DNA of 61,921 nucleotides, filler included, from Stramenopiles sp. TOSAG23-6 (taxonomy: Eukaryota), in NCBI GenBank assembly GCA_900128565.1. It is 4 parts of 4 records of this genome, joined end to end, with 100 filler letters (N's around TTAATTAATTAA, not from the genome) between each part and the next. Parts side by side here need not be neighbours in the genome. Positions count along the whole stretch, not along the records: positions 15,551 to 30,968 come from LT636116.1; 3 more parts are not named here. One strand, 5' to 3'. The number at the start of each line of letters is the position of its first letter. Within the stretch, counting starts at the first letter, position 1. Position numbers and translations under genes: made by a program. Shown one piece after another: positions 6,070 through 39,172 of this stretch. A model generated the notes under the pieces. That model was not told the DNA's origin and did no database searches. It saw only the letters and a list, made by a program, of their open reading frames with translations.

Positions 6070-8198
6070 ATGTCAGAGTTACAGTTTATAGTAGATGCGC
6101 TCAACAAGCCGCCCTTTAACGCTGGTTTGTCACTAGTAACTTTTGATGAGAAGAGTCCGTTTGAGTTGCTGGAAACTCTTCAAATGGTTCTAGTTTATCT
6201 AGATAACACAACACATGATGTTGATATCCGCGATGAGCCTCGAGATAGTACATGCTCTCGTATAATGCAATTTTTACACCTCTTGAAGTACAAGTTTCCT
6301 CCAGGTAGAATTGAAGAGTTCAAACAATGTGTTATGAAAAGTAATCGTAACGTCATTTATCCAATGTTGTCGTGGATGTTACAACGACTGGCGCCATTAA
6401 AAAAGCGAGCATATTTGGCTCGATTTCTAATAAACGTAGAAGTCCCTTCCGAATTTTTTCAAGATGAAGAAATCAAAGCGGTACATACACATTACAAGCA
6501 ACTACAAAAACAATTTAAAGAAACCCACAAACAAGTGGACAAACTTCGTTCAAACAATCTTGCACCACAAGAACTCAAGAAAGAGATATCTCAACTTGAA
6601 GAAGAACGTCAACAATTAAAGGATAAAATTTCCCGAAATCAGCGAAAGATGCAATCAAAGGAAGGATTTCAAGAATTACTTGATGTGACAAGTGCTCTAC
6701 GTAGAGAGCAAGAAGAGGAAACAAAATTGCATGAAAGAATGCAAGAGCAGGAACATTTACTGTCGAAGGCCGAGGCTGAATATATGTATGTTTTAATTTT
6801 TTTCAAATTCGTTTTTTTTTTCGTACGAAATTTTGTACCTAACGATTTTTTCAACGGGAACTTCAAGAACTTCGTGAAAGTAACAAAGAACGCATGTCCG
6901 CAGAAGATATGCTCAATGATTTAGAGAGGGAGGTTGCTGAAAGTCGAGCTCTTGTCAAGGAAACTCTTCCAAGACAAATGGCACAACAAACTGAAAAACT
7001 GCGGAGACTTCAGAATGTCATGTCTGAACAGCCAAGAAGTGAAGAAGATGTTCGTCATTTAGAAGCTGAATGTATGTCAACTGAGCAAGATATATCTGAA
7101 CTTAGAAGACAAATATCAAACCAACAAGCAAAATTAGGTGATGATAAATTAGGCATATTTCGTCAACAAGCTGCGTTAGTGGAGCGTAAACTTAAAACAA
7201 AGGAAAAAGAGTGTGAAGATGCTGAAGTTGAAGCTGCGGAACTGCAGACAAAGCTACAAGACAAGGAAGCTATTTTATCGGAGTTAACAGGACCAAAATT
7301 TATGAAACGTGAAGAGTTCAAAAAGTACGCAACTGAATTGAGATCAAAGACAAATAAATATAAAAAGTTGAAAAAAGAAATCGCAGTTATTGCTGCTGAA
7401 ACCGTTACCCTAGACAGAACTGAACAACTTTTACGCAGCCGTGACGAAAATGTTCAAGAATTGCTCGCCAAAATTGAAAAAGAAAAAGGTGTTTCTGGAT
7501 ATATGACTACACAGGATGAATTAGCAAAAGTTTCACAGTTGAAGTCAGCAACAGATCAAGTGAAAGGAAAGACCTTGGAAGAGATTTCAAAAATTGTTTC
7601 AGATATAAATTCTTCGTTGAAGAAACGCAAAGTTCAATTACAACCACAAATTAAGAAATTAAGAGCTGTGCGAAAAGGATTTCGAGAATTAGAGCAAGTT
7701 TATCTACAGAAGAAAGCAACATATGATAATACTGCTGTTGGTCTTGAGAGTAGTAGATTGAAACTAGAGAAACAATGTGCAATTCTTCAAGAAGAAACCG
7801 TACAAGAAGAAAGTCGATATCATCATCTTCAATGTCTTATTGCTGTTGCTTCCTTTCGAATGGAGAGAGTGAAGCAAGAAGAAAAGTTCGCTAAAGGTAA
7901 TGGAAAATTATTACGTGATTTCAAAAACTACACCGAACTATACAATCATAAATTATCATCTCAGGCTTCTATGAGCAAGGAACTACACAAAAGACAGAAA
8001 GAAATAAAAGAGAATGCTTTGGGAAATATGAAGCAAAAAGGAATGTTTGAAGATCTCAGAAAGTTATTAGAAGCAAAAAAGCAAATTGCATTGGATCAGA
8101 AGAATGAGTCAAAGAAAGATGATGTAGATGATGATATTGATATGTTAACTAACATGGGGACAATAGTTGATGGTGCAAATGTAATGACTATCGAATAA
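6070..8198 (+). CDS. IFT81: Intraflagellar transport protein 81 (one family intron from 6786)
   Basis: MSELQFIVDALNKPPFN, LKKRAYLARFL, KGKTLEEISKIV...LQPQIKKLR; frame change coincides with the intron element. Confidence 0.95.
6786..6851 (+). mobile_element. Introner-like intron in IFT81, 3' box missing (probable assembly collapse)
   Basis: AT|GTATGT...TTCGTACGAAATTTTGTACCTAAC then directly coding-frame sequence. Confidence 0.7.
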
Positions 8199-13800: not shown

Positions 13801-14367
13801 TGGATACCAATGGAACCCGATGACATTTATGGTGAAGGAGAAGAACTAGAAGTTTATGTCGAAGATACTGAAGATTTAATTGGAAAACCATGGACATATA
13901 AATTAATGATTCGAAATGCATCAGGCCTTCCAATAACTGCTGATGTATCTTTTGTACAATATGATTTCTTTGGTGAATTGTTCACAACAGAAACAATCAC
14001 GGAGGAAACTGATAATCCCATCTTCAATTACACGTATATACATCATTTAGATGCAGTTACAGATGAATTTATTCAATGGTTGAAAAAACCGATGGAATTT
14101 CATTTACATGTATCACCTGTAGTAAAAGATACTGGAGATGAGATTAGTTCAAAAAATCCACATGTGCATGCTACATTGAGTGGGAAAGTTTCGTCATTTG
14201 CTACAAAATCAGAACTAATCAAAAAGATTAGTAAATTAGAAAATACGAAAACAAAATTGGAAAAGAAATTGTCTTTGTGTGCACAAGAACTGGACCAATA
14301 CAGATCAGGAAAAAAACCAAAAAAAATAGCTGGAGATATTTCAAAAGAGAAACTACTTCAAAAGTGA
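10837..14367 (+). CDS. Kinesin (kinesin-3/KIF28-like architecture: motor, coiled coil, FHA-like, C2-like)
   Basis: KVSVRCRP, AYGLSGSGKT, NHQSTRGH, DLAGTE; PHFVNLDED...YLNG...WDRVVIG FHA-like region. Confidence 0.9.
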   Translation: MSVSIKVSVRCRPFTIDDKLGVQMLQLDENNGEINLINSSYSTNRFGFTYSWWSAYGWKRHCKSNEDIAEDMKLTNQIDCYKACGLKVKADLYDGNAVVLFAYGLSGSGKTFTVFGPDDPAADVAWFKHEDPHDLWGIFPRLGHEIFQDIKDGWKVKLKYFQNIVDVVRDLMDPVGKEQTYKSGMGKDPDGFMDVKWARQKVLADWADLRQTFQTANGRKAIAPTQFNHQSTRGHCIMVLEVEMPKPSDPSTKQRGRVYVCDLAGTEPAGDIVFAKYKTKKYPDGTVEHKFIGAHKDKKKTKELQDQGKKINLSLSEMAQFFMKMAQAIKKKQLKPGKSIPGCNSYFLCKFLKDTMLQARTYLFCAIRPECKYHPYTFSTLGFAKNASVIKLSPKKATVACSPAERKMMKELEKMKQMMAAMSEENEKLQKSGGGGGGDDSAEVARLREELAAAKREKEEDEARLAEMQKNLDKAKAQRASANTTVTDLQAKLAKAEAAGESEKVKALEAELAEAKQKYEEETNEVNKAKEELSAAETKESGGADVAKLEAMLEKEKALAEEAAAANAKAHKADAAMQAAQAQAAETQRKMEEMQKAFEEKQNELRNQMNAEDPNAAERVERERKQKQKREEYAARGIGMVAFEPEESEPHFVNLDEDEYRSERFIFWLKKDENVFGPGGDVRPFSVNTVQGHCTVKRKGKKWTLVGGAGATYLNGKTVPKGKSKSIKAWDRVVIGGDVLQFVIPGVAPNDNKFPAEVAIGEYQSALSEERRKKSGVSAEQEENLLARLAQFEEEKKQWEAKMKAGRGKLSVEEENALREEDRKRRKQMEKLQMQVMNGQIIQLLPKLKELKILTDTMDRGYLSFEAKLLQSHTNSGKLELKVKVHNGNTHEDTLIDTFELDKAYNVLKEEHRNLSIAVENGRDYTVELHHDPVQLLFDNTFHLGTSIIFPEFLLGYMLGTDEEEDEQFVDIKNSMALSKHIGKLEVIWIPMEPDDIYGEGEELEVYVEDTEDLIGKPWTYKLMIRNASGLPITADVSFVQYDFFGELFTTETITEETDNPIFNYTYIHHLDAVTDEFIQWLKKPMEFHLHVSPVVKDTGDEISSKNPHVHATLSGKVSSFATKSELIKKISKLENTKTKLEKKLSLCAQELDQYRSGKKPKKIAGDISKEKLLQK

Positions 14368-15396: not shown

Positions 15397-15450
15397 GTAT
15401 GTTTTATTTTTTTTTCAAATTCGAGTTTTTTTTCATACGAAATTTTGTAC
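15397..15450 (+). mobile_element. Introner-like intron, truncated by contig end
   Basis: T|GTATGTTTT...CATACGAAATTTTGTAC. Confidence 0.85.
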
Positions 15451-15550
15451 NNNNNNNNNNNNNNNNNNNNNNNNNNNNNNNNNNNNNNNNNNNNTTAATT
15501 AATTAANNNNNNNNNNNNNNNNNNNNNNNNNNNNNNNNNNNNNNNNNNNN
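15451..15550. other. Artificial contig linker
   Basis: N-run + TTAATTAATTAA (stops in all six frames) + N-run. Confidence 0.97.
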
Positions 15551-15605
15551 AACAATTTTTTTTTTTTTTGGTAAAAAAATTTTGAAATATTTTTCCAAAA
15601 TACAT
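15551..15605 (+). mobile_element. 3' part of introner-like intron (AT end)
   Basis: TATTTTTCCAAAATACAT|CTT GTT AAC. Confidence 0.8.
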
Positions 15606-15938: not shown

Positions 15939-16191
15939 ATTGTTGTTATAAAAATGTAAAAATAAAAAATGATATAATTGGATCTTGTCTTTTTGATATA
16001 TATATGAAAGCGAAAGAGTCTATATTGCGATTTCAGAATGGATATCGAATACGTAACGGATAATTCGTTTGGATACCGAAGAAGAACACAGACAACCAAA
16101 GATAGGAAAGATCTCCTACCTTTTGATAGATCTGCTGACATTACTTGGACACGCAAACCGCAAATTACGGACTGCAAGAGGTTTTGAAAAC

Positions 16192-18402
16192 ATGGATCCC
16201 AGCGAAGAAGTGAAAGTAGAAACTAAGTTACCACCCAGTCCACCGAAAGATACCAAAACTGTCAGAAGCAAATTGGAGCGGCTCAGGCAGAATCACGCGA
16301 ATGACATTGCAAAGCGTGAAACTGAACAACCAATAGTGACTACAGATGTAAAAGAACAACCTAATAAAAATGATAAAAATACTTCTTCAGCTTGGTGTGA
16401 TTCAGAATTCCCAGCGTCGGAACAGTCAATGGGTACTGTAGCAGAACAGAACGTTCTCAAAAAAGAGGGTGCTCAATGGTGCCGCTTGCCCAAGATTCCC
16501 TGCAGACATCATAGAGACGTCAACGGGACAAAGAAGCACATATTGTTCAATAAAACGGTGAGTGCAAATGATATACGTCAAGGTATGTTGGGTACATGTT
16601 ATTTCCTTGCTTCTTTAGCAGCACTCTGTGAACATCCAGACTTCCTACGTAGTCTTTTTTTGAAACAAACTGAAAGCAAGACTGAACACGAGGATGCTGC
16701 GTTTCAAGATGCACTTTCCCAGGGTCGTCTGCTACCTCAATCGGGTGGTGCAGGAGATGAAGATGACGTGCAGTTTTATAGTCCTTCCAACGGAGCCGTC
16801 ACCGTGCGTTTCTGTGTAAAAGGTTACTGGACTGACGTAACTATAGACGACTTTTTCATCTGTGTGCCATCAGTACAAAACGGCTTACCCGACACACCTG
16901 CGTTTGCTCGTTCCGCGGGGGCAGAGATTTGGGTCATGGTTTTAGAAAAGGCATTTGCAAAGTTGCACGGGTCGTATGCTGCTATTGAGTCGGGTAGTAT
17001 AACAGACGCGCTTTTTGCCCTCACTGGTTGTCCACCTTTTCGACTAGATCTGGCTGGTGGAGATACCAAAGTCACCTTGACAAATGACGAACTCTGGGCA
17101 ACATTATTGAACAAGCACTCAAAGGGTGCCGTCGTGTGTGCAGCAATGGCTTCGTATAAAGATCCAAAGACAGGAAAATCGATTGCAGGTGAACATGAGA
17201 ACGACTGTGGACTAATTCATGGACATGCATATACTGTCCTTGGCCTTCACATTGTCAAGGCCACTGGTCAGCGATTATTGCAGATGCGAAATCCATGGGG
17301 ACGAGGTGAGTGGAACGGTGAGTGGAGTGATGGTTGGGATGGATGGACGCCAGAGTTTAAGGAAGAGCTAGGGAAGTCAGATCCTGTTGGCGACGATGAA
17401 GAAAACGACGGTGTTTTTTTCATGGCGTTCGATGATGTAGTCAAACACTACGCTTCTCTCGAGGGTACTATGCTTGGACCTCAGTGTGAAGTACCATGGC
17501 GACATCAATGTACTAATTTGACTTTTTCGGCGGTAAATACAAAACATATGACAACAGCAGTTGCATTTGACTTAAGTGTTACTGAAGGTGGTACAGCTTA
17601 TTTTATGCTTGGACAAGATGGCGGTCAAAACAAAGAAAGTGGAGAAGCCTTAAAGCACACACCAATTCAGGCAAATATATACCGCATGGGGTGTAACGTG
17701 GGGAAAGATGGCAAGTCGACAGAGAAAATGACCACTGTTGCTACACCGATGTATTCAGGACCACTTCTTGTGGTTGGTGAAAGAGAGAACTCTCATAGTG
17801 TACCAGAAGCACTAGATTTAAAACCAGGGAAATATATTTGCGTCATAGAACGATCAGCTAATGGAGAAGATGGGAATGATATAAATCTCAAAGAGATGCC
17901 ACTTATGGTCAGTGCCTGCTCGGAAAAGGCTATTACAATGACACCTCATGAACTCTCGATTGGATCTGACAGTGAGGATATTTTTACTGTCGGTCATGGT
18001 GACGGTGTTACACATTTGCTATATAAGGAGTACTTTAATCGGACACAACAAGATGGTACAAAAAATGTAATCACTGATCAAACTGATCCGAAATTTGTAA
18101 AGACAGATTGGGAATTTTCTGAAGGTTCGTGTGTGCTTTTTACGGCAGAAAAGAACGATGGTGGGGTTCCTAATGGTGTTCTTACTTGTACTGTGACTGT
18201 GACTGGCGATAATATCGTTGTGCATAGCCCTGAAACTGCCACTGTTGAGGTGCCGGAGACTGCAGAAGGTGTTGCCAAGGTAACTTTTAAAATCAGTAAA
18301 GATTCGAAACTTGAAGATGGATTTTTGATTATTCGTAGGAAAAGTCCTGGAAGCTATAAGTTTGGAATGGGTTTCCAGATGGGTTTTACAGCCGGTGGTT
18401 GA
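16192..18402 (+). CDS. Calpain-family cysteine protease
   Basis: DIRQGMLGTCYFLA, LEKAFAKLHGSY, HAY, RNPWG catalytic triad; first ATG 16192. Confidence 0.93.
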   Translation: MDPSEEVKVETKLPPSPPKDTKTVRSKLERLRQNHANDIAKRETEQPIVTTDVKEQPNKNDKNTSSAWCDSEFPASEQSMGTVAEQNVLKKEGAQWCRLPKIPCRHHRDVNGTKKHILFNKTVSANDIRQGMLGTCYFLASLAALCEHPDFLRSLFLKQTESKTEHEDAAFQDALSQGRLLPQSGGAGDEDDVQFYSPSNGAVTVRFCVKGYWTDVTIDDFFICVPSVQNGLPDTPAFARSAGAEIWVMVLEKAFAKLHGSYAAIESGSITDALFALTGCPPFRLDLAGGDTKVTLTNDELWATLLNKHSKGAVVCAAMASYKDPKTGKSIAGEHENDCGLIHGHAYTVLGLHIVKATGQRLLQMRNPWGRGEWNGEWSDGWDGWTPEFKEELGKSDPVGDDEENDGVFFMAFDDVVKHYASLEGTMLGPQCEVPWRHQCTNLTFSAVNTKHMTTAVAFDLSVTEGGTAYFMLGQDGGQNKESGEALKHTPIQANIYRMGCNVGKDGKSTEKMTTVATPMYSGPLLVVGERENSHSVPEALDLKPGKYICVIERSANGEDGNDINLKEMPLMVSACSEKAITMTPHELSIGSDSEDIFTVGHGDGVTHLLYKEYFNRTQQDGTKNVITDQTDPKFVKTDWEFSEGSCVLFTAEKNDGGVPNGVLTCTVTVTGDNIVVHSPETATVEVPETAEGVAKVTFKISKDSKLEDGFLIIRRKSPGSYKFGMGFQMGFTAGG

Positions 18403-18549: not shown

Positions 18550-18646
18550 GTAGACATCCAGTTTCTAATTTTTTTGTTTTTTTTTCATAGTAAATTTCGT
18601 ACCTAAAAAAATTATTAAATTTTTAAAATATTTTCCTGAAATACAT
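18550..18646 (+). mobile_element. Introner-like element outside coding sequence (calpain 3' UTR orientation)
   Basis: AT|GTAG...AATTTCGTACCTAA...TATTTTCCTGAAATACAT. Confidence 0.75.
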
Positions 18647-18659
18647 CCAGCTACATTAG

Positions 18660-20383
18660 CTACATTATAGTACAGTCATCTTTTGACATTGCAGCATCAT
18701 AAGATTTTCGTTTCAACATCCACGCAGGAAAGTCCCATGTATTATGAAAAGATATTTCAAAAATTAAAATCGTTAGGTACACATTTTCGTATGAAAAAAA
18801 AAACTAAATTAAAAATTCATGATGGAAACGTACATGGCGATTTCGTTTCATTTTTTACTGAAGACTTTTTAAATATAGAATATTCAAAATCTGCTAATTC
18901 CATTAAAAATGTTCTATTGGGGTCTATTATCGGCCGTCTTCGAGCTATATATTTATATGCTGCTTTAAGGTATTTATGCTCCTCCGACATCATAAATTAT
19001 GAAAAAATATTTCAAAAAAATACTAAAATTTGTTAGGTACAAAATTTCCTATAAAAAAAAATTATGAAAAAATATTTCAAAAAAATACTAAAATTTGTTA
19101 GGTACAAAATTTAGTACGAAAAAACAATTATGAAAAAATATTTCAAAAAAATACTAAAATTTGTTAGGTACAAAATTTACTATAAAAAAACAATGTAGAT
19201 AAAAAATTGAAATGAAAACGCACATATATGCTAAACAACAACTTGCCGAGCGTGACACACCTGCTCGACAATGCACTAGCACTTTTCCCTGTGTCTGTCT
19301 CACATTGCATATAAATTCTATTGCTTTAAGAAAATGTGGTTTAATGTTTTGTGTTACAGCGTCATCTACAGCAATTCTCATATAAATAAAATCATTTTCA
19401 TGTATTTTGGAAAAATATTTCAAAATTTTTTTTTGAAAAATTTGTTAGGTACAAAATTTCGTACGAAAAAAAAACTTTCCAAAAAAACTTTCCAAAAAAA
19501 AAAATTAAATTTGTTAGGTACAAAATTTCGTACGAAAAAAAAAATAAAATAAAACGTACATGATAACACGGAATGTCTCTTGTTACATTTAGAATGTGCG
19601 TAATACCAATTTGTTTTAATTTTTTAAAACCTAACGCATCATGTCTATCTCCTAAGTACATGAATGTTCTTATCATGTATTGTATAAGAAAAAGAAATAT
19701 AGTAAAACATTTGTTAGGTAGACATTTTTATATATAATGAAAATACTCAAAAAAAAACTTTTTTGTTTTTTTGTTAGGTACAATATTTCGTATGAAAAAA
19801 AATCTACTCAAAAAAAAAAATCTACTCAAAAAAAAAAAAAAAAAAGTTTGTGTAAGGTAAAATTTTGTATGAAAAAATATATATAATTCATAATGTAAAA
19901 CTACATGGACGGTTTATCATAGACAATTCCACCTCGTACAAAATTAACAATCTCCGCTGGCAATATTTTGGATTCTTTATATCGTTGAATTATTGTTCTT
20001 TTTCTATTTTTAGGGTTAGGGTTTCTATGTATTGGTGTTGATATTTTCTTTATTTTTTTTCTATCACTCTTACTTGATGTTGCTTTTTTCTTTTTAATCA
20101 TTTTATGATGTCGAACTTTTGGTGAATGTTTTTGTCCTGAATGTTTATTTGGTTGTATCGTGTTTTTTTTTACAGTAGATAATGATACACTGTACCTTCG
20201 ACCAATTTGACTGCTGCCTCGATTACTTTTACTATTGTTTTTCTTTACAGTAGATGATAATATAGGTAAACTATTTGCTCGCCGAAGCCTATTTTTTGTA
20301 TTTTTTGTATTCGCCATACTATCTTTAGGTAGCATATTCAGCACAGAACGGCTCTTGGAAAGCTTTACTGCACGTTTCGACAT
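18660..20383 (-). CDS. Dual-specificity phosphatase with basic N-terminus and C-terminal CTIM (exons 20383-19905, 19674-19560, 19399-19224, 18991-18834, 18736-18660)
   Basis: Spliced product PSMIRTFMYLGD...GITHILNVT...VHCRAGVSRS...AYMM...RRPIIDPNRTF...CTIM*; requires four GT-AT introns. Confidence 0.9.
18737..19904 (-). mobile_element. Four GT-AT introner-like introns in DUSP: 19675-19904, 19400-19559, 18992-19223, 18737-18833
   Basis: Each has a GT donor, 1-3 core/branch modules and an AT end; removal restores the DSP motifs. Confidence 0.88.
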
Positions 20384-23053: not shown

Positions 23054-24065
23054 TTACATATTAATACTTGAACTTTCTTTTAGTAAAGTATTCATTGATA
23101 CTTTAAGCTTTAATAACTCTGCTTCTTTTTTTTCAATCATTCTTTCCAGTTTTCTACGCTTTACAGATCGTCTGGATCTTGATTTGTCTGTATTGTGAAA
23201 AAATATTTAAAAAAAAAAAAAATGTTAGGTACAAAATTTCGTATGAAATGATTTTTTTTTAAATTTTTGTTAAAAAACATACATCTATCCACCATTGTAC
23301 ACAAATCAGGCCCAACGATGCCTTTAGAACTACTAAGTGGTATTTCATATGCTTCATCGGCGTTAAATGGTTTAATTTTATGATCTTTTCCTAAAATCTC
23401 CGGACAATGTATTTTGGAAACATATTTCAAATTTTTTTTTACCAAAAAAAAAAAAAAATTGTTAGGTACAAAATTTACTATAAAAAAAAAAAAAAAATCG
23501 ATTTTTTTGTAAAAAAAAAAAATAAAACAAACATGCAATGTGCCCTCACTAATAGATTTAATGCTATACAACAAATCATATGCTACTACTTCATTTATAG
23601 TGGAATCCTTCTTATATTTCGGATGTTCAGACACGAATTTCCGCATCCATGCTGCATTTGTGAGAAGCTCCCCAGTAGCCCTCATGACAATAAATTCCAA
23701 ATATTTGTTTACAGTAAGTCTAGTGGTATGTATTGTGAAAAAATATTTTTTTTGTTTTTTTGAGATTTTTAATTTTTTTTGTTTTTTTTTGTTAGGTACA
23801 AAATTTCGTACGAAAAAAAAAAATTAAATTCAAAATTGAAAAAAATGTAACATACACTATCACATTTGATGGTATCTAAATAAGCATGAATCAGAGGAAC
23901 AAAACCAGGGAAGAAGTTCCCTTTTCCAATGAGTATTTCGAGAGCAGTCATTTCAATTGAGCCATCATGTATTTTGGAAAAATATTTAAAAAAAAAATCT
24001 AAAAAAAATCGTTAGGTACAAAATTTCGTACGAAAAAAAAATTCGATTTTTTTTTTTTTTTTACC

Positions 24066-24096
<31 letters not shown>

Positions 24097-24724
24097 AAAC
24101 GTACATGGTCACTATGTATCGCACATTTTTTTATTCCTTTTTCCGATTTACATTCATTTTCAGATGGAGGCGCTAAATGTTTACGAAACCAAAATTTTTC
24201 TTTATTCACTGCATCAACGTTATACAATGTAGAAAAATATTTTTTTTGGTAAAATTTGTTAGGTACAAAATTTCGTATGAAAAATGTTTTAATTTTTTTT
24301 TTTTAGGAAAAAAAAACTACATGCGCTCTTTTAAGACTTTCATCAATCTTTGATATTGGTATATACATATTCAAATCGAATGCAAGAATAACACGAGATA
24401 CAAGAACTACAAAGACAGTAAATGCAGCATTTTCAAAGTCTGTTATTTGAGCTTCCATTGGTCGAAATTCTGTTCGCCATCCAATGTGATGATGTTTTTT
24501 CTGAGAATTCGTGTTTTCTTCATCCTCTGAATTATTTTTTGTTTTTTTTCGTTTTCTATTTTTTTCTACATAAGAGTCAACTGAAGAAATATCATCATCA
24601 GAATGATGAGAAGGAGTCGTTGGAGGTGAATCAGGCATATGATTGTTGTTCGACGCTGGTGGAGGTTTCCAACGGACAGTTTGCCAATTTGTAGACTGAA
24701 TATTTTCCCATGTATTGTGTAGAA

Positions 24725-24768
<44 letters not shown>

Positions 24769-26180
24769 TCGTTAGGTACAAAATTTCGTACGAAAAAAAT
24801 GTTTGGAAAAAAAAAAAAAAACATACAGTGATCAGAGTCTCGCTCGTCGTCTAGCTCAACACGCTCTTTAAACACAACTAATGGATCCCGGACGAAAAGA
24901 TGAGCAATATGAGCGGCTAAAACATCATCAACGCCACCTCGTTTCAACTCCTCTTTCACGTCTTCATCAATAGCAACTGGTACATCATTATAGCATTCAC
25001 TACATGTATTGTGAAAAATATTTTTTTTTTTTTGATTTTTTTTGTTAGGTACGGAATTTCGTACGAAAACCAAAAATAAAAATTAAAAAAAAAAATAAAA
25101 CATACATGAATGGATGTCTTTTCCTGCTTTATGGTTACATATAAAATGCGAAATAGAATCGTATCTAGACTTGTACAGACGTTTTTCACCAAATCCTGCC
25201 ATTTCTTTTTTAGATTTTGTTCCATTGAGTTGTACTGCAGGTGGAGAATGACTTCGAATAGCGGAGCAAGAATCACCAGCATAAATGCCACTCTCTTCAG
25301 GTGTGCGATCATCAACACTAGCAGCAATATAACGCCATCGAGCATCCGTATTGAGTAATTTCCCGCGCATGATAGGACATGCTGCTGTTAATGCCAACAT
25401 GACTGGAGCAAATACTGCTAAAGCATCATACAAATGGCGGGACTCTTGGATATCACAACATTGAAAAGTAACCTGCAGGCAACAGCAGCCCATGCCAAAC
25501 GCCATACAGTCCATGTGCACTTGACGATCACTTGGTGGAGTATTCGTATCTCGAAATACTGGAGCAGTAATATTTACACGACTACCTCGACGCATTCTAA
25601 TATTTTGTGTTAATGTTTTGAAACGAGGGTGAGGATTAATACACTCATCCGGAACATAAGCAGATTTTGAGTATTGACCAGGGACTTGTGCCTTGGGTAC
25701 TGTAAAGTCACCAACACCTAATAGCGGAAAGGCAACGGTAGATATCGCTGATTCATTGGGACGTAAAACTTTGATAAGTCGATTACGACGATTACGCATA
25801 TTACGTTCTACTGCAATGAGATCACTTGTGTAACCACCGTATGCAGTACGTGGTGTTGCTTCAACCATCCATGAACCGTATTCTACATGCCAGTTACACT
25901 CGCCCAGTAGAGCATCTTCTCTACCTCTTTGATTCTCCATGGTAGATAGTTCTTCAATTATTTCATGAGCACGTAAAGAAACGCGCACGCGCTTTTCTTC
26001 GTGGTCAAAAGCAACGATGTGATATTCAACTTCGTCACCCCACATAAGCACATCACCTTTGAGATTACGCATTCTACGCCAAATTGTCAAGAACTGTTGA
26101 ACACCGTGCTCACGAACATACTTTATCACGGATAGAGAATCATTCCATGGTAATGGAGTCCCTGTTTCAAGAAAACCCAT
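23054..26180 (-). CDS. GCLC: Glutamate-cysteine ligase catalytic subunit, 8 exons
   Basis: MGFLETGTPLPW, WGDEVEY, MDCMAFGMGCCCLQVTF, KSRYDS, ENIQSTNWQT, GWRTEFRPME; stop 23054 after removing 7 introns. Confidence 0.95.
23188..25105 (-). mobile_element. Seven introner-like introns in GCLC: 25004-25105, 24710-24826, 24222-24320, 23967-24104, 23728-23855, 23407-23532 (GT-AT) and 23188-23282 (GT-AG)
   Basis: Shared core TACGAAATTTTGTACCTAAC; removal gives HSCSECYND, DHWENIQ, RAHNVDAV, SDHDGSIEM, DSTTRLTV, LHCPEILG. Confidence 0.9.
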
Positions 26181-27994: not shown

Positions 27995-29114
27995 ATGTCG
28001 GAAGTCGGAGTTGCCGCTATCACCAAGTCTTCAGATCCATATTACGGGGCGCGAGATAGTATCCAAGTGTCACTTCTCGATGCTGAGCGGAACTGCAGTG
28101 AGTTACAGTCTCTACTGAGTTCTTTACAATCATCTTCGAGTTCACGAGATACTGTTGTCCCAAAACTGAACTCAGCATCATTGCAAAGTGCCAAAGAAAT
28201 GACTACATCGATATGCTCTGAAGTGGCTCATTTAGAGGTTTCTCGTCAGGAGCTTTCTCGTGCAGTCTCGATGGCAAAAAAAGTAGAAAAGGAAGAAAGC
28301 AATGAAAAATTTCGTCATCTGGATGCCTTGGAAATTAGTACCCGTGAAAGTTTCATGCGTGATTTGAAATTTCGAATTGAAGAAATGAATCATGTACTTG
28401 ATAAAGCAACTACATTCCTCGATGCTGCCGAGGAATCGTTTACATCGGGTGGAGTACAAGATTCATTTGCCAATAAACATTTCAATGCATTGAAAACAGT
28501 CAGTCATAAAAACACGATAAACAGCAATCATAGTAATAATAGTACCCATATGCATTCTTCTTCCCCGTATGGAATATTTGATAAAAAGATAACAATGGAT
28601 GATTGGGATGATGAAGAAGAAACTTCTGGACTCATTCCTGTCATGACAAAAGACCATCGTCGGAATTTATTTGGACATGTTGACACGTGTATGTTTTCAT
28701 CATGAATTTATGAATTTATTTTTTTTTTTATTTTTTCGTACGAAATTTCGTACCTAACGAATTTTTTCCACCCATTTTTTTTTCCACAGTACATCTGATT
28801 CACACTTAGCTGTAGGTGGAGGACGTCAATGTATTGTCGATTTAGAGATGCAGCAAAATGAACATTTGAGTAAAATGTCTGATGCTCTACATCGTATTGG
28901 TGGTTCTGCATTAGCCATTGGAATAGAGCTCGATGAGCACAAGAAAATTGTGGATACCCTTGAAGACGACGTTGATACAACACAGATGATGATGGATCGA
29001 GGCTTAGGCAAAGTGAAGGATTTGTTAGATACCGACTCAAATTGTCATATCACCATTATATTTGCTCTCATAGCCATTGCAATACTTCTTATTATAGCAA
29101 TAGTTTTTTATTAA
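27995..29114 (+). CDS. Qc-SNARE, syntaxin-6/10/61-like, 2 exons
   Basis: DPYYGARDSI N-terminus, SNARE motif QNEHLSKMSDALHRIG...IGIELDEH, C-terminal TM. Confidence 0.85.
28689..28794 (+). mobile_element. Introner-like intron in syntaxin (GT-AT; in-frame GT-AG alternative 28687-28789)
   Basis: GTATGT...GTACGAAATTTCGTACCTAAC...TTCCACAGTACAT. Confidence 0.8.
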
Positions 29115-30968: not shown

Positions 30969-31068
30969 NNNNNNNNNNNNNNNNNNNNNNNNNNNNNNNN
31001 NNNNNNNNNNNNTTAATTAATTAANNNNNNNNNNNNNNNNNNNNNNNNNNNNNNNNNNNNNNNNNNNN
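30969..31068. other. Artificial contig linker
   Basis: N-run + TTAATTAATTAA + N-run. Confidence 0.97.
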
Positions 31069-32713
31069 AATATTTCAAAAAAAAAAAACTTAAATTTGTT
31101 AGGTACAAAATTTCGTACGAAAAAACATCCGAATTTGAAAAAAATAAAACATACATGCTTGAGAATCAATAATATTTTTACATAAAATAGTTTTTGTGTT
31201 TTTTGTAGTATTGCAATTATCAAGTTGAATCATATTTGTATTATCAGACATTATATTTTTTTCATTGTTTGTGTTTTTTGTAGTATTGCAATTGTCAAGT
31301 TGAATCATATTTTGATCGCCATTCCTAAAATGACGCTGCGTACGCAAAAACTCTTGTGCTATATCAGGTTGTTCAAATCCATCAATTTGTTTCTTTTTAC
31401 AATCCGGGCAAGTAATGTGAAAAATATTTTTGTTTTTCGTTAGTAAAAGAAATTCGTTAGGTACAAGATTTTCATACAAAAAATAAAAAAAAATTAAAAA
31501 TGATGAAAACATACAAAACCAATCGCCTTTGGGTAAACTAACGAGAATTGGTTGTAAACAAAACATATGAAACCCTCTATCACATTTATCACATAAAAGC
31601 AGTGAATCATCGTCGCTATCATGTATTTTGAAAAATATTTCCAAAAAAAAAACTTAAATTTGTTAGGTACAAAATTTCGTACGAAAAAAAATCGATTTTT
31701 TTGTTTAGGTACAAAATTTCGTACGAAAAAAAATCGATTTTTTTGTAAAAAAAAAAAATAAAACATACATCTACAATTTTACATATATGACATTTCGCTG
31801 CACCGAACGCCAATTCTAAGAGAGCAAATTTCACTGGATTTCGTGCGAGTTTTGGTAATGATTTTTTTACCATTTTGGTTAACTTTTCGGTTTGATCATC
31901 TGATCGAATCACTTTTTTTAATTTTGGTCCAATTCGAAATTCTATATTTTCAGGATTTTTCATTGGTTTTTGATTCTGACTAAAACTAAAACAAAAATTT
32001 CTTTCTTTGTGCCATCTTGAAATCATTTGAGAAATTTGATTTCGTCTAAGAGTTACTTCGATTTCAGTAATATCAGGTGGGCCAGGTACCCTTCCTCGTC
32101 CATTGCTACTTTGTATTGTGTCATATATCTTTTGTTGTTTTTGATCATATATCTTTTGTTGTTTTTGATCATATATCTTTTGATGTTTTTGATCTTCGGT
32201 CCATCCGTCTATATCAATTGTGTAATCGTCACATACAAAAACTTCAGCAAATCCATTTGTTTGACGAGGTTTAACAAGTCGCCAATTATAGAAATAACGT
32301 AGTGCTGAATGTGAGAAATATTCAGAATTTGCAAAATTATGCGAAAGAAGACAACCATCTGCATAATCGACAGTATACTTTTGGTTACCGTGGCTTGCGA
32401 TCACTCGACCTACGTACATGTATTTTGGAAAAATATTTCAAAAAAAAAAAACGTTAGGTACAAAATTTCGTAAAAAAAAATAAATTCGAAATTGAAAAAA
32501 AATAAAACATACCAACATTTTTCTGCAACCCAATGTACACTAACAACATGGTCAAGAATATTCAAAACATCTTCTCCAGAACAATAACCTTCGGACAACT
32601 CTCTTTTTTGATACTCGACACACGTACTGTGAAAAAATATTTCAATTTTTTTTTGTTAGGTACTAAATGTCGTATGAAAAAAACATTACATTAGAAATTC
32701 ATATAAAACATAC
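31069..32713 (-). mobile_element. Introner-like introns in Tudor/PHD gene: 32622-32713 (GT-GT), 32418-32512 (GT-AT), 31621-31768 (GT-AT), 31410-31514 (GT-TT), partial 31069-31154
   Basis: Shared core and 3' box; removal restores Tudor WY.G and PHD cysteine spacing. Confidence 0.87.
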
Positions 32714-35144: not shown

Positions 35145-38100
35145 ATGCCCAAACCTACCACTGAATCGCTCTTCTATGATGTTGATGCACTTCGGTCTGA
35201 TGATTTTCCTCACTTAAACACAGAGATATATGCAGATTATGCAGGTGCTACTTTACCAGCAAGGTCTCAGGTGACAGCAGCAACACGTGATATTCTTGAG
35301 TATCCCTTTGGTAATCCTCATTCACGAGGACCAGCTTCCCAAAGAACATTGTCTCGTGTACAGCGAGTTAGGGAAATGGTACTGGAGTACTTTAATACAT
35401 CATCCGACGATTACTCTGTAATATTTACCGCTGGTGCAACGTCAGCCCTTAAAATGGTTGGGGAGTGTTATCCTTGGAGTAAAGAGAGTAATTTTTTTTA
35501 CTTAAAGAATAGCCACAATAGTGTCGTAGGTATACGAGAATATGTACTCAAAGCTGGCGGATCTTTCAAGGCTATACATCCGTATGAATTATTTACTGAA
35601 CATGATAATACAATTGAGTCTGATCATCAGAATCCCAACTCCAGTTTTCATAAAAAAAAAAAAGATAAATGTAGCAGTAATTTAGTGGCATTTCCCGCAG
35701 AATGTAACTTTAGCGGTACGAAATATGACTTAAGTGTCATTCATTCTATTCAAAATGGTAACATCTCTAAAAGAAGTTCGAATATTTGGGGAAGTGGACG
35801 GTGGCGAATTTTACTCGTATGTCTCATGTATTTTTGTAAAATATTGTACAATTTTTGATTTTGTTTTGTTACGTACAATATTTCGTATGAAAAAAATATT
35901 TTTTTTTAACCTACGTCTTTACCATTTGATTTCAAATTTAATTTTTTTTCACAGAAAATTTTGTATTTCATGTTTTTTTTTTGTGACATATTTTTCACAG
36001 CACTTGATGCTTCTAAATATATTTCAACGAATACTTTAGACTTAGAGAAATATTCTCCTGACTATCTCGTGTTTTCGTTTTATAAATTATTTGGATTCCC
36101 TACAGGTATCGGTGCATTATTAGTAAAGCATGATGCTGCACAAGCTCTATGTCAAAATCAAGTGTATTTTGGTGGAGGTACTATTCTTAGATTAGGTTCA
36201 GAGGGATCAGAGTTATCTTCTCTACAGCGTAAATCTGCAATGAATGAACGATTTGAACATGTATGTTTTATTTTTTTTCAAATTCGATTTTTTTTTCATA
36301 CGAAATTTTGTGAACAATAAATTATAATGCCATTATAGAACTTGAGCATGGATTTGTGTTTCTTACGTCAATTTTGAAGTATCTCAATACAAACAAATTG
36401 CTTGATGCTCAAAATGATGATTATCTCAATGCATATAAAACACAAAGTACAACAATGGATAAAACAAGAATTGATACAAACCAAAACGACACAACAATGG
36501 ACAAAACAAGAATTGATACAAACCAAAACGACACTTTACAACGAATAGCAAAATTGGCAAAAACAGCAATGAAACTAGTGAATCATCAAACATTTACTCT
36601 TGCAACGTTTTTATGGTCACAAATGACAAATTCTTCATTTCAACATTTCAATGGAAATCCAGATACGTTTTCGAAATTGAATTTTTTACCTAAATTTTGT
36701 TCTATTCCAAATTTCGTACCTAATGAATAAAACCAAAAAAAAAATATTTTTTCATAATATTGGTTGTGTTATCTATGGATGGTCAAAAAAAGTAGTACAG
36801 TCACGGATGCAAGGACCAGTGATTACTTTTAACATTATTGACCATCGAGGATTCTTTATTCCGTGTACGTTTTTATCATTCATTTCCATTTTTTTTTTCG
36901 TACGAAATTTCGTACCTAACAATAAAAACTCAAAGAAAAAAAAAATTCACATTACATATACACAAGTAGAAGAAGTACTAAATAAATACAAAATTCAAGT
37001 ACGTAGTGGGTGTTTTTGCAATCCAGGGGCGTGTACGTTTTCGTTTCAATTTCGATTTTTTGTTCGTACCAAACTTTGTACCTAACGAAAAATTTAAATT
37101 TAAAGTTTTTTCACAATACATGCCAGATATTTCTGAATCTTTCGGATGATGACATTAATGCTCAATACAAAGCTGGACATGTTTGCGGTAGTGATATTGC
37201 AGTAGTGAATGTTTTATATGAATTTCTAATTTAATTATTTTTTCATACGAAATTTCGTACCTAACATTTTTTTTTTTTTGAAATATTTTTTCACAATATG
37301 TAAATGGTATGCCTACCGGTGCAATTCGTATATCTCTAGGATCTACAAGTAACATATCAGATTGTGAATTTATAATTTCAATATTACGAAAATATTTTCT
37401 TGTCAAGAAAGATCCAAACATTCGAAATTCTTTCGAGACGAAATTTGGTACAAAATTTGGTACAGATTCAACAAAAAATGTACAAAAGAGTAGTGAGATG
37501 GTTAAAGAGCTTTGGATATATCCTATAAAATCATGCTCCGGAATACGAAAGTCATCTTGGCCTATAACAGCAAAAGGCTTTTTACTTGATCGTCATTGGG
37601 TCATCATTGAAGAAAAAGAAAACAATCTATTCACAGCATTGACACAAAAGAATTGTCCACGAATGTGTATGTTTTATTTTTTTTCAAATTCGATTTTTTT
37701 TTCGTACGAAATTGTGTACCTAACAGATTTTTTTTCAAAATATTTTTCTTAAATACATGCTTAATCCAACCAAACATTCAATTGAGGTATAAAAATAAGC
37801 AACATAATACATTTTGTGGTATCCTTCAGTTGTAGATTTTCATTATTCGTTTCCTTTTTTTTTCATACGAAATTTTGTACCTAACAAAAAAAACATTTTT
37901 TTTGACCAATTTCGAATTTCTCAACTTTTTTACAACACAGGGATGCACCAGGAATGCCTACTTTACATATACCAATATCACAGCTTGGTATTTTAAAATC
38001 ATCAATCAGTAATGCACAAGTGGAATGTGGCACTGAGCAAATTGGAAATTTCTTAGGTACGAAATTTGGTACAGATTCAATTTCGAATAATAGCTTATGT

Positions 38101-39172
38101 TTGAATAAAGCTATTGTATGTGGCAGTCAGCAAAAGATTGAATTTGTCCCAGATGCAGAGAAACAAATTTCAGATTGGCTCTCAAATTTTCTTGGACTTA
38201 CCTCTGTTTTTCTCGCCATACAACCAGAAAAATCTTTTCGAAATTTTGCAAATACAAGAGGTACTATCCTTCTTATCGGCGAAAAGAGTGTGACAGATGT
38301 ACGTTTTCATGATGAATTAAAAAAAATTTCGTACAAAATTTTGTACCTAACATTTTTTTTAGTAAAAAAAAATATTTTTTCACAATATATATACGAAACC
38401 ATGACTCTATCAATAATATACCAAGTGATATATCTGAGTCATCAGTAGGTACTACATCACGATTTAAGAACTTATCTCCACATCGATTTAGGCCTAATAT
38501 TATTATTTCATCTAATACAAAAAATGTACTTTTTCATTATGAATTTCAATTTTTTTTCCATAAAATTTGTTGTACCTGATAACAACCTAATAACAACTTT
38601 TGTATTTTTAACTTTTTTACAGTACATGCGTCTTTTATAGAGGATTCTTGGAATAAAATTTTAGTAGGAAATGTCTTACTAGATTTCGTGTCTCCATGTA
38701 TGTTTTCATTTCAATTTCGTTTTTTTTTTCGTACGAAATTTTGTACCTAACAATTGTTTTTCAAATATTTTTCAAAATACATGCAATCGATGTAGAATGG
38801 TAAATATTGACCAAACCAATGGCAAAGAATCCCCTGAATTACTCATTGTACGTTTTCAACATTGAATGTCGAATTTATTATTTTTTTCATAGAATTTTTG
38901 TTTTCTCTAATGAATTATTTTAGTAAAAAAAACATATATTTTTCACAATATTTACTCTGTCGAGGTATCGAAGGCAAAAATACAAAATCTTATTTGGGCA
39001 CTTGATGAAAATAAATGAAAGACACCATTTGGATATTGATAGAAAAACTTACCAAAAGAAGAATGGTGAATCTGATATTTTAGAAAATTTTGATTGTTCA
39101 AATATTATTTGTGAAAATACTTGTATAAAAATTATTGAGAGAAGGCGCCCACCGGCTTTGTCATTATTATAA
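35145..39172 (+). CDS. MOCOS: Molybdenum cofactor sulfurase (NifS-like + MOSC domains), 13 exons
   Basis: YADYAGATL, GNPHS, FPAECNFSG, SFYKLFGFPTGIGAL, RSGCFCNPGAC, IYPIKSC, RFRPN, CNRC; continuous after removing 12 introns (intron 2 junction damaged). Confidence 0.93.
35817..38953 (+). mobile_element. Twelve introner-like introns in MOCOS: 35817-36005 (TT end), 36261-~36311 (truncated), 36663-36762 (AT-TG), 36865-36957, 37033-37121, 37207-37301 (GA-GT, or GT-AT at 37205-37299), 37667-37758, 37832-37940 (AG end), 38299-38390, 38526-38627, 38698-38782, 38848-38953 (TT end); unlabelled ones are GT-AT
   Basis: Shared motifs; removal restores conserved MOCOS motifs at each junction. Confidence 0.87.

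What the first reader, a model, noticed from the sequence alone, without database searches (positions are those of the whole stretch)
23188..25105. GCLC: six consecutive GT-AT introns in a conserved, intact enzyme
Junctions such as GAT CAC T|GTATGT...AATACAT|GG GAA AAT give DH-W-ENIQSTNWQT. Shifting two bases to make an NN-AC intron would change the conserved His to Gln, which supports the GT-AT register. The exons carry no stops or frameshifts, so precise removal is implied. The seventh copy has the same 3' box but ends AG at the identical position.
Basis: partly seen in the sequence, partly recalled or inferred. Interest (0 to 1): 0.8.

Follow-up and report, generated by a model that had tools for sequence, protein, structure and literature searches.

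The report
Repeat-derived GT-AT introns in GCLC
A glutathione-synthesis gene of an uncultured marine protist is interrupted by seven copies of one small repeated element that are removed from the RNA as introns, six of them ending in AT instead of the near-universal AG, and current gene models of this organism miss them.

Summary
Observation confirmed, interpretation supported. The minus-strand GCLC gene (26180-23054) carries seven 95-138 nt, 16% GC insertions. Removing them in the GT..AT register gives a 773-aa open frame. That frame is collinear with 59 orthologues, including an invariant His at junction 2. Poly-A metatranscriptome contigs join the exons across intron 4 (an AT-ending one, skipping an internal AG) and across intron 7 (GT-AG, register unique).

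All seven are copies of a ~90-nt element with 39 profile matches in the 62-kb window. It carries a GTAYGT 5' end, a CTAAC branch-like motif and a conserved 3' box ending ACAT. Of 27 copies in six genes, 25 start GT. The 3' ends are AT 19, AG 2, TT 3, GT 2 and TG 1.

Best reading: an introner-like (MITE-like) family removed at RNA level, probably by a major-type spliceosome that does not need AG here. The machinery and the way the element spreads are inferred, not shown. No target-site duplication was found. No description of GT-AT introners in marine stramenopiles turned up in six paper searches. It is a new variant of a known kind (Fritillaria, Amoebophrya, Physarum).

The parts
23054..26180 (-). 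GCLC (glutamate-cysteine ligase catalytic subunit) coding region, ATG at 26180 to TAA at 23056-23054; 2322 nt of CDS in 8 exons, 773 aa
25106..26180 (-). exon 1 (1075 nt)
   Evidence: Pfam GCS; DNA contig X3 record 8 and RNA contigs cover it
25004..25105 (-). intron 1, 102 nt, GTATGT...ACAT. Cuts giving the same mRNA include AT-AC (-2). A canonical GT-AG pair at +4/+4 would change one residue (S to I)
24827..25003 (-). exon 2 (177 nt)
24710..24826 (-). intron 2, 117 nt, GTATGT...ACAT. Only TG-CA, GT-AT or TA-TG keep the invariant His; no canonical pair within 24 nt gives a net-zero product
24321..24709 (-). exon 3 (389 nt)
   Evidence: DNA contig X3 record 7 covers 24320-24714
24222..24320 (-). 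intron 3, 99 nt, GTAGTT...TTGTAT (variant 3' box, still AT); no canonical net-zero alternative
24105..24221 (-). exon 4 (117 nt)
23967..24104 (-). intron 4, 138 nt, GTACGT...ACAT. It is skipped in a poly-A RNA contig (X7 record 14 joins 24104 to 23965, the same mRNA as the prediction). An AG between the CTAAC and the 3' end is not used
23856..23966 (-). exon 5 (111 nt)
23728..23855 (-). intron 5, 128 nt, GTATGT...ACAT. TG-CA gives the same mRNA; an AT-AC pair at +2/+2 would give V instead of T at a variable residue
23533..23727 (-). exon 6 (195 nt)
23407..23532 (-). intron 6, 126 nt, GTTTGT...ACAT
23283..23406 (-). exon 7 (124 nt)
23188..23282 (-). intron 7, 95 nt, GTATGT...ACAG. Same element, canonical GT-AG, register unique. 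RNA contig X6 record 9 joins 23283 to 23187 with no mismatch
23054..23187 (-). exon 8 with the TAA stop
18737..19904 (-). four element-derived introns (19904-19675, 19559-19400, 19223-18992, 18833-18737) in a gene whose product carries an HC..G..RS phosphatase-like motif (the motif name is recalled). Two of them hold 2-3 tandem core units
28689..28794 (+). element-derived intron, GT...GTACAT, in a plus-strand gene
31410..32713 (-). element-derived introns 32713-32622 (ends GT), 32512-32418, 31768-31621 and 31514-31410 (ends TT), plus a fifth copy running from 31154 into an N gap
35817..38953 (+). molybdenum-cofactor sulfurase gene with 12 element-derived introns. Examples: 35817-36005 (GT..TT, passes over an AG at 36000), 36663-36762 (AT..TG), 37033-37121 (GT-AT inside the CNPGAC motif), 37832-37940 (GT-AG), 38848-38953 (GT..TT)
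6786..6855 (+). 3'-truncated copy in a plus-strand coiled-coil-like ORF; its 3' boundary was inferred from reading frame only

Best explanation
The seven interruptions of GCLC are copies of one short (~90 nt unit), AT-rich, MITE-like repeat that acts as an intron, that is, an introner-type element. Each copy brings three signals: a major-spliceosome-like 5' splice site (GTAYGT), a CTAAC branch-like pentamer just after a central palindrome, and a conserved T-rich 3' box ending ...CA(C/A)AATACAT. The copies are removed from the pre-mRNA exactly at the element's ends. That gives GT-AT introns, or GT-AG where the last base is G. Shown: the repeat family; the restored frame and collinearity with orthologues; RNA contigs lacking introns 4 and 7; and disuse of AGs that lie upstream of the AT end. 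Inferred: that the major (U2-type) spliceosome does the cutting, that CTAAC is the branch site, and that the 3' cut is placed by the 3' box or position and not by an AG. How the element spreads is not known. There is no target-site duplication. A few fragments lie outside coding sequence in either orientation, which leans towards insertion at the DNA level.
For: Family. The core 20-mer gives 35 matches against 0.03 expected. A profile built from 19 copies finds 39 matches at E<=1e-3. Mean pairwise identity is 0.70 over 171 pairs, and the introns are 15.8% GC against 38.9% for the CDS.

Precise removal in GCLC. Splicing gives a 773-aa ORF. Against 59 orthologues there is no gap at junctions 2, 3, 5 and 6. 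His is 59/59 at junction 2, His 56/59 at junction 3, Cys 45/59 and Pro 54/59 at junction 6, and Tyr 38/59 at junction 7. The best profile-scored candidate removes exactly the predicted length at 7 of 7 introns. Introns 2 and 3 have no canonical (GT/GC-AG or AT-AC) net-zero alternative within 24 nt.

RNA. X7 record 14 (poly-A metatranscriptome contig, 207 nt) runs 24200-24104 and then straight on to 23965-23856. X6 record 9 runs 23368-23283 and then 23187-23077 with 0 mismatches.

DNA keeps the introns. The window itself does.

Family-wide. 20 of 21 copies give an open 50-codon frame when removed in this register; the one failure contains an N gap. Of 27 copies, 25 start GT, and the 3' ends are AT 19, AG 2, TT 3, GT 2, TG 1. 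10 of 21 non-AG copies have an unused AG between the last CTAAC and the 3' end, intron 4 among them.

Second gene. In the Moco sulfurase gene, the register that aligns with the family is best or tied at the introns that could be scored in conserved sequence, including the CNPGAC junction and 35817-36005, which passes over an AG.

Ordinary introns exist too. A likely GT..AG intron that is not a copy of the element lies at about 3867-3736, so AG sites are probably in normal use elsewhere.
Against: Only 1 of the 6 AT-ending GCLC introns has a bridging RNA contig. Contigs come from an assembler, and RNA libraries can contain DNA. The RNA cannot fix the register: intron 4 has five cuts that give the same mRNA, AT-AC among them. 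The profile test does not separate net-zero registers at introns 1, 4, 5 and 6. Intron 1 has a canonical GT-AG alternative at +4/+4 and intron 5 an AT-AC alternative at +2/+2. No snRNA or splicing-factor gene could be examined: Rfam found nothing in the window and no genome is held. So assigning the cutting to the U2-type machinery rests on motif resemblance alone. One truncated copy (36261 to about 36311/36322) fits orthologues best with TA..GT ends, which the model does not explain. One RNA contig (X8 record 25) runs 5 nt into intron 2, so unspliced RNA or DNA is present as well.
Confidence: 0.75

Rival explanations
1. The introns are real, but a minor-type (U12-like) or otherwise specialised spliceosome removes them. 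It would place the 3' cut by distance from a branch site inside the conserved 3' box, which would explain why the terminal dinucleotide does not matter.
For: GT-AT is a known rare boundary of U12-type introns: it makes up 17% of 1,014 non-canonical U12-type introns in Physarum, where the U12 system expanded, possibly through a transposon (passages of the preprint). The 3' box sits at a fixed distance from the cut, whereas CTAAC lies 30-64 nt away. The run GTATGTTTT shares most positions with the U12-type 5' motif quoted.
Against: Position +4 varies T/C and +5 is G in about 85% of copies, whereas the U12-type motif quoted has C at +5. A CTAAC pentamer is present in nearly every copy. No U11, U12, U4atac or U6atac gene could be searched for.
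Confidence: 0.1
2. The registers are mixed. Where the upstream exon ends in AT (introns 1, 4, 6, and about half of the family) the chemical cut is AT-AC, and other cuts are used elsewhere. In that case GT-AT is not the true boundary of all six.
For: AT-AC at -2/-2 gives exactly the same mRNA for introns 1, 4 and 6. The base before the intron is T in 24 of 27 copies and the one before that is A in 15 of 27. The RNA contig across intron 4 cannot tell the registers apart.
Against: Introns 2, 3 and 5 cannot be AT-AC at that position without changing conserved residues or length. The seventh copy is unambiguously GT-AG in RNA at the aligned position. The 5' sequence read as ATGTAYGT does not fit the AT-type 5' splice-site motif quoted.
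Confidence: 0.07
3. The excision is guided by structure and is not spliceosomal, as in euglenid nonconventional introns. The short terminal inverted repeat pairs the two ends, and the cuts fall at fixed places on that helix, leaving a 2-nt 3' overhang on the excised hairpin.
For: Intron +1 can pair with position -3 in 27 of 27 copies (G:C 21, G:U 5, and one A:U double change in the AT..TG copy). +2:-4 pairs in 25 of 27 and +3:-5 in 24 of 27. Many minimum-energy folds pair the two ends. The terminal dinucleotides vary while the position stays fixed.
Against: The helix is only 5-7 bp. C at +4 is not compensated (8 C:A cells). Sliding the partner by two columns pairs about as well, because the ends are alternating purine-pyrimidine repeats. 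Fold z-scores are mostly unremarkable, from -4.0 to +1.3 over 20 copies. The elements carry textbook spliceosomal 5' and branch-like motifs.
Confidence: 0.05
4. The elements are not spliced from this locus. The joined RNA contigs would then come from an intron-free paralogue or allele, or from DNA-level elimination as with ciliate IESs.
For: The joined forms were seen only as assembled contigs in RNA libraries, which may hold DNA. Many copies are flanked by a CATG-like repeat of which one copy remains after removal.
Against: All eight exons are intact and conserved, which would be unexpected for a dead copy. The same is true of the 12-intron sulfurase gene and others. DNA contigs of an independent sample keep the intron ends. 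The flanking repeat is a family-wide consensus, not a duplication specific to each copy. The only near-identical protein record, P0001, is a model of this same intron-bearing locus.
Confidence: 0.03

Closest known systems
Introners of Micromonas and Aureococcus (non-autonomous DNA-transposon introns; Huff et al. 2016 as summarised in PMC11282704 and PMC9860276)
   Same: Many near-identical short introns spread over unrelated genes. The element supplies splice signals. It is AT-rich relative to the exons. Removal leaves the coding sequence unchanged.
   Different: Those families use canonical GY-AG sites, and many have clear TSDs and/or TIRs (passages). Here most copies end in AT, no TSD is detectable, and the inverted repeat is only about 6-7 nt.
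MITE-derived non-canonical introns of the tunicate Fritillaria borealis (Henriet et al. 2019, read only through the review PMC11282704 section 6, and the search listing of PMC13326754)
   Same: Transposon-derived introns with non-GT-AG ends, removed efficiently by a host-adapted spliceosome. Some 3' ends are AT.
   Different: In Fritillaria the 5' end is the odd one (AG-AC and AG-AT are commonest) and TSD/TIR are evident. Here the 5' end is a standard GTAYGT and only the 3' end departs. The host is a stramenopile, not an animal.
Introner elements of the parasitic dinoflagellate Amoebophrya (PMC7789003, passages)
   Same: Repeated non-canonical introns with inverted repeats at both ends and 3-5 nt direct repeats across the boundaries, so the borders are ambiguous. 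Standard annotation pipelines failed on them.
   Different: Amoebophrya shows no dominant dinucleotide pair, many families, and no U1 snRNA was found. Here there is one family with a fixed GT 5' end and mostly AT at the 3' end.
Expanded U12-type introns of Physarum polycephalum (preprint 10.1101/2020.10.12.336362, passages)
   Same: GT-AT occurs as a real boundary class, and a transposon origin is proposed for the expansion.
   Different: Physarum introns carry the U12-type 5' motif and a branch motif 9-12 nt from the 3' end, and GT-AT is a minority class. Here the 5' motif is U2-like and AT is the majority.
Euglenid nonconventional introns (review PMC11282704 section 6)
   Same: Variable terminal dinucleotides, end-to-end pairing, TSD-like repeats at the junctions, and a likely MITE origin.
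   Different: Euglenid introns lack a polypyrimidine tract and conserved spliceosomal motifs and are released as circles. The elements here have a T-rich tract, GTAYGT and CTAAC.

Membership tests
Introner / transposon-derived spliceosomal intron | Many similar intron sequences in unrelated genes of one genome | tested here: met
   39 profile matches in 62 kb. Copies lie in GCLC, a phosphatase-like gene, a sulfurase gene and at least three other ORFs.
Introner / transposon-derived spliceosomal intron | Copies are removed precisely from the transcript | tested here: met
   RNA contigs skip introns 4 and 7. For the other copies the evidence is frame restoration (20 of 21) and collinearity with orthologues.
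Introner / transposon-derived spliceosomal intron | Hallmarks of a DNA transposon: target-site duplication and terminal inverted repeats | tested here: inconclusive
   TSD: within-copy matches equal between-copy matches at all 20 positions over 23 copies. TIR: only ATGTAT/ATACAT, about 6-7 nt. Published introner families include some with neither feature.
Introner / transposon-derived spliceosomal intron | Recent gain: the positions are empty in relatives or polymorphic | not testable with these tools
   No relative's DNA was reachable. The metagenome scan gave 0 of 64 true copies, protein searches found no relative above 54% identity apart from the same-locus model, and no genome is held.
Canonical U2-type GT-AG intron | GT at the 5' end with an extended 5' splice-site consensus, plus a branch-site motif | tested here: met
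   GT in 25 of 27 copies. +3 A, +5 G and +6 T in at least 19 of 22. CTAAC or CTAAT present in 22 of 22.
Canonical U2-type GT-AG intron | AG at the 3' end; the first AG after the branch site is used | tested here: not met
   AG ends only 2 of 27 copies. 10 of 21 non-AG copies pass over an AG after the last CTAAC, intron 4 with RNA support.
U12-type (minor) intron | The [A/G]TATC[C/T]TT-type 5' motif (as quoted) and a branch motif about 9-12 nt from the 3' end | tested here: not met
   +5 is G, not C, in 19 of 22 copies and +4 varies. No motif like those quoted lies in the last 14 nt.
U12-type (minor) intron | The organism has U11, U12, U4atac and U6atac snRNAs | not testable with these tools
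   No snRNA in the window. No genome held.
Ciliate-type internal eliminated sequence (DNA-level excision) | Absent from the DNA of the expressing nucleus; TA-bounded ends (the TA rule is recalled) | tested here: not met
   The elements are in the assembled DNA window and in contigs of an independent DNA run. Their ends are GT..AT, and the genes use standard stop codons.

The most novel reading that the evidence does not exclude
In this uncultured marine stramenopile lineage the major spliceosome has stopped needing AG at the 3' splice site for a whole class of introns. A still-spreading ~90-nt element that carries its own 5' site, branch site and 3' box ending in U has become the main intron type of a compact, otherwise intron-poor genome. 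The 3' cut is set by the box, or by pairing of the intron's two ends, and not by the dinucleotide. That would be the first large-scale set of U2-like GT-AT (GT-NU) introns. It would also be a natural system for asking how 3' splice sites are chosen without AG.
Probability: 0.3. Interest if true: 0.8.

Novelty: new variant of a known kind. Interest (0 to 1): 0.65.

Why it matters
[quoted passage not shown] Here the 5' end is standard and the 3' end is mostly AT. That bears on two questions: how new introns arise, and how much freedom the catalytic core allows at the 3' splice site.

Second, it has a practical cost. The only database models of these genes (P0001 for GCLC, P0121 for the sulfurase) read through the introns or mis-splice them, which yields proteins with runs of F, I and K junk. 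The large introner surveys start from annotated introns and accept only AG or AC 3' ends (passage), so a family like this one would be missed. Proteomes of uncultured protists built from such models are partly wrong.

Third, the elements coincide with three assembly gaps in the window.

Tried and rejected
- Whole genome: none is held, so there is no census, no snRNA search and no paralogue search.
- Rfam on the window: 0 matches.
- Scan of metagenome contigs with a 17-nt core: 64 loci, none with the element's flanks or ends (0 of 64).
- Close relatives of GCLC: the 'longer' search and the 'near' search found nothing above 54% identity except P0001, which models the same locus. Intron presence or absence in relatives could therefore not be checked.
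- Profile scoring of registers: it fixes the length removed but not the exact register at introns 1, 4, 5 and 6. In the sulfurase gene it was uninformative at introns 8-10 and produced no candidates for introns 7 and 11, a limit of the script.
- TSD search: negative.
- RNA folding of 20 copies: z-scores from -4.0 to +1.3, with no consistent strong structure. The terminal-helix counts are no better than those with the partner slid by two columns.
- The copy at 15397-15605 failed the frame test because it contains an N gap.
- Parts of the gene with no RNA contig cover (introns 1, 2, 3, 5, 6) say nothing either way.
- Earlier findings of this scan: none.
- Paper searches for GT-AT introners or non-canonical introns in MAST or other stramenopiles: nothing relevant. 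Supplementary tables of the introner surveys are closed and could list such a family.
Full report
What is there. The finding's span, 23188-25105, lies inside a minus-strand gene. Read on the minus strand, an ATG at 26180 opens a 1075-nt exon. This exon matches Pfam GCS (E 3.4e-42) and the solved yeast glutamate-cysteine ligase 3ig5 (E 2e-59). Seven short AT-rich blocks follow: 25105-25004 (102 nt), 24826-24710 (117), 24320-24222 (99), 24104-23967 (138), 23855-23728 (128), 23532-23407 (126) and 23282-23188 (95). Six begin GT and end AT. The seventh has the same 3' box and ends AG at the same aligned column. Removing all seven in that register gives a single 773-aa frame ending at TAA 23056-23054. 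The blocks are 15.8% GC and the coding sequence is 38.9%.

Protein-level tests. I aligned the spliced product, computed inside the script box from window coordinates, with 59 orthologues.
- Junction 2: the residues are D-H-W-E-N-I-Q. His is invariant (59/59), the next residue is F (55) or W (4), and there is no gap.
- Junction 3: His is 56/59.
- Junction 6: the Cys-Pro that follows is 45/59 and 54/59.
- Junction 7: Tyr is 38/59.
- Junctions 5 and 6 are also gap-free.
- Junctions 1 and 4 lie in variable, indel-rich stretches.

I then built a profile from the orthologues alone and scored every stop-free combination of donor and acceptor shifts within 12 nt. At all seven introns the best candidate removes exactly the predicted length. 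The predicted register itself is top at introns 2, 3 (tied) and 7. At introns 1, 4, 5 and 6 the test does not separate the net-zero registers.

A search for canonical pairs (GT/GC-AG, AT-AC) within 24 nt gave these results:
- Introns 2 and 3 have no net-zero alternative.
- AT-AC at -2/-2 gives the identical mRNA for introns 1, 4 and 6.
- GT-AG at +4/+4 is possible for intron 1 (Ser to Ile).
- AT-AC at +2/+2 is possible for intron 5 (Thr to Val, at a variable column).

But 'GT-AT' is a choice among cuts that give the same mRNA. It is justified because it is the only register common to all six.

RNA and DNA evidence. Twenty of the 21 runs listed hold part of the gene, 12 of them on record as RNA. 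I laid three RNA runs and one DNA run. All are assembler contigs, so they show presence and not level.
- X7 record 14 (poly-A metatranscriptome, 207 nt) runs 24200-24104 and continues without extra letters at 23965-23856. It skips 138 nt and gives the same mRNA as the predicted intron 4; the one-base offset is the shared G.
- Intron 4 contains an AG between its CTAAC and its 3' end, and that AG is not used.
- X6 record 9 (197 nt, no mismatch) runs 23368-23283 and then 23187-23077. That is intron 7 removed as GT-AG, and here no other register is possible.
- In the independent DNA run X3, contigs covering exon 3 (24320-24714) and exon 6 (23595-23733) stop 1-6 nt inside the introns. The tool skips the repeats there.
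- One RNA contig (X8 record 25) also runs 5 nt into intron 2, so unspliced RNA or carried-over DNA is present too.

Two of the seven introns, one of them AT-ending, thus have direct support for removal from RNA. The other five have none either way.

The introns are one repeat family. The shared 20-mer occurs 35 times in the window (up to 3 mismatches) against 0.03 expected. A profile of 19 copies finds 39 matches at E<=1e-3. The consensus unit is about 90 nt. In order it holds GTAYGTTTT, a T-rich stretch, a central near-palindrome (CGTACGAAATTTTGTAC), CTAAC, a second T- or A-rich stretch, and a 3' box GAAATATTTTTYCA(C/A)AATACAT. Some introns hold two or three tandem core units.

Copies interrupt GCLC (7), a phosphatase-like gene at 18.7-19.9 kb (4), a gene at 28.7 kb (1), a gene at 31.4-32.7 kb (5), a molybdenum-cofactor sulfurase gene at 35.8-39.0 kb (12), and ORFs at 6.8, 15.4 and 61.9 kb. 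When removed in the register aligned with GCLC, 20 of 21 copies give an open 50-codon frame. Shifts of 1 or 2 nt gave no open frame at 13 of those 20 copies. The single failure contains an N gap.

In the sulfurase gene, a profile of 45 orthologues puts the family register first or tied at the junctions that lie in conserved sequence. These include the one inside the CNPGAC motif, and 35817-36005, where the aligned 3' end (…CACAGCACTT) passes over an AG five bases upstream.

Over 27 copies the 5' end is GT in 25, and AT and GA in one each. The 3' end is AT in 19, AG in 2, TT in 3, GT in 2 and TG in 1. So the family's rule is 'GT … mostly AT, nearly always T', at a fixed place in the 3' box.

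How it most likely works. The 5' end (GTAYGT; +3 A, +5 G and +6 T in at least 19 of 22 copies) looks like a major-spliceosome 5' site. A CTAAC pentamer fits the usual branch-site pattern (pattern recalled) and lies 30-64 nt from the 3' end. A T-rich tract precedes the 3' end. I therefore read these as spliceosomal introns whose element supplies all the signals. The 3' cut is placed by the conserved box or its position and does not need AG. This is supported by 10 of 21 non-AG copies leaving an AG unused after the last CTAAC.

A probable ordinary intron with GT..AG ends that is not a copy of the element lies at about 3867-3736 on the minus strand, judged by frame continuity only. AG sites are thus probably in normal use elsewhere.

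The following are shown:
- the repeat family;
- exact-length removal;
- RNA junctions for two introns;
- AGs passed over.

The following are inferred:
- the machinery;
- the branch site;
- the register at the chemical level.

Spread. No target-site duplication appears: over 23 copies the match between 5' and 3' flanks within a copy equals the match between copies at every position. The CAT|…|G flanks are a family-wide preference. The inverted repeat is about 6-7 nt. Fragments of the core lie between genes in both orientations (46965-47023 minus, 47207-47251 plus), one copy lies between convergent genes (18575-18645), and one antisense fragment is nested in a sulfurase intron (35864-35899). This leans towards DNA-level insertion followed by selection for the sense orientation inside genes. 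Reverse splicing is not excluded.

Rivals.
- A minor-type or specialised spliceosome. GT-AT is a known rare U12-type boundary, 17% of 1,014 non-canonical U12-type introns in Physarum. The 5' motif here does not fit the U12 motif quoted there, and the snRNAs cannot be checked.
- Mixed AT-AC and GT-AT registers. This is possible for about half the copies and impossible for introns 2 and 3.
- Structure-guided, non-spliceosomal excision. Intron +1 pairs with -3 in 27 of 27 copies, including one G:C to A:U double change. But the helix is short, the slid controls pair as well, and the folds are unremarkable.
- An intron-free paralogue, or DNA elimination. This is made unlikely by intact conserved exons in several multi-intron genes and by the DNA contigs.

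Known relatives and novelty. The host is a eukaryote with standard stop codons. Its nearest records are P0001, whose source label contains 'MAST', and P0002, labelled INCI…, at 52% identity; I take this, from recall, to be the stramenopile Incisomonas.

P0001 (772 aa) and P0121 are models of these same loci that read through or mis-splice the elements. The annotators' pipeline evidently did not recognise them.

I read the following:
- passages of a general paper on marine stramenopile single-cell genomes (PMC5778133): two mentions of introns, neither about splice sites;
- a 2026 preprint on protist single-cell genomes, which covers only intron proportions;
- the Amoebophrya paper;
- the two introner surveys;
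- the Physarum preprint;
- section 6 of a 2024 review of transposon-derived introns.

Six searches found no description of GT-AT introners or of non-canonical introns in these stramenopiles. Supplementary tables were closed and could hold such a family.

The kind itself is known: transposon-like introns with non-canonical ends and a tolerant spliceosome occur in Fritillaria, Amoebophrya, some dinoflagellates, Physarum and euglenids. The variant described here is not known: a standard 5' end, a 3' end mostly AT, U2-like internal motifs, and a stramenopile host.

Limits. There is one 62-kb window, no genome, no relatives' DNA, contig-level RNA only, and one bridging contig for the AT class. One truncated copy (36261 to about 36311/36322) fits orthologues best with TA..GT ends and remains unexplained.

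Noticed in passing
window 23054-26180 (-) and 35145-39100 (+): The only near-identical database proteins, P0001 (772 aa) and P0121 (457 aa), are gene models of these loci that read through or mis-splice the repeat introns. The result is runs of F/I/K-rich junk and missing conserved segments (for example ENIQ is lost in P0001).
   Followed up: partly
window 3736-3867 (-): A probable ordinary intron that is not a copy of the element: GTGTAAGT or GTAAGT at the 5' end and TTTTGTGCAG at the 3' end, about 130 nt. Removing it joins two open frames. It suggests that canonical GT-AG splicing coexists with the repeat introns. Judged from reading frame only.
   Followed up: partly
window 36261-36322 (+): A truncated element copy lacking the CTAAC and most of the 3' box. 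The orthologue profile prefers an intron at 36262-36311 with TA..GT ends, which restores the conserved FE(D/H)GT motif, over any GT-anchored cut. No explanation, and an assembly error is not excluded.
   Followed up: partly
window 36663-36762 (+) and 37207-37301 (+): Two degenerate copies in the sulfurase gene. One has AT..TG ends in the family register, with an A:U pair replacing the usual G:C between intron +1 and -3. In the other, both ends can slide by 2 nt to restore GT..AT with the same protein.
   Followed up: partly
window 35817-36005 (+): A composite intron: sense-type 5' end and 3' box, with an antisense fragment of the same element nested inside (35864-35899). The orthologue-supported 3' end lies 5 nt past an AG.
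   Followed up: partly
window 19223-18992, 19559-19400, 31768-31621 (-): Introns with two or three tandem repeats of the core-plus-3'-box unit, as if elements had duplicated internally or inserted head to tail.
   Followed up: no
window 46965-47023 (-) and 47207-47251 (+); 18575-18645 (+): Core fragments without splice-site ends lie in an intergenic stretch as an inverted pair about 190 bp apart. A fuller copy lies between two convergent genes, just past the stop codon of the minus-strand one.
   Followed up: no
window 15432-15551, about 31000-31090, 46480-46548: Assembly gaps (runs of N around a TTAATTAATTAA linker). Two of them fall inside or next to copies of the element, so the repeat breaks the assembly.
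   Followed up: no
window 24480-24660 (-): Exon 3 of GCLC encodes a low-complexity Ser/Asp/Lys/Asn-rich insert of about 60 residues that is absent from P0002.
   Followed up: no
window 53648-61885 (-), 10828-14364 (+), 8349-10751 (-), 16057-18399 (+): Large genes without introns: a Piezo-like channel (2746 aa), a kinesin, a CCDC113/96-type ciliary coiled-coil protein and a calpain. The genome is compact, and introns cluster in a few genes.
   Followed up: partly
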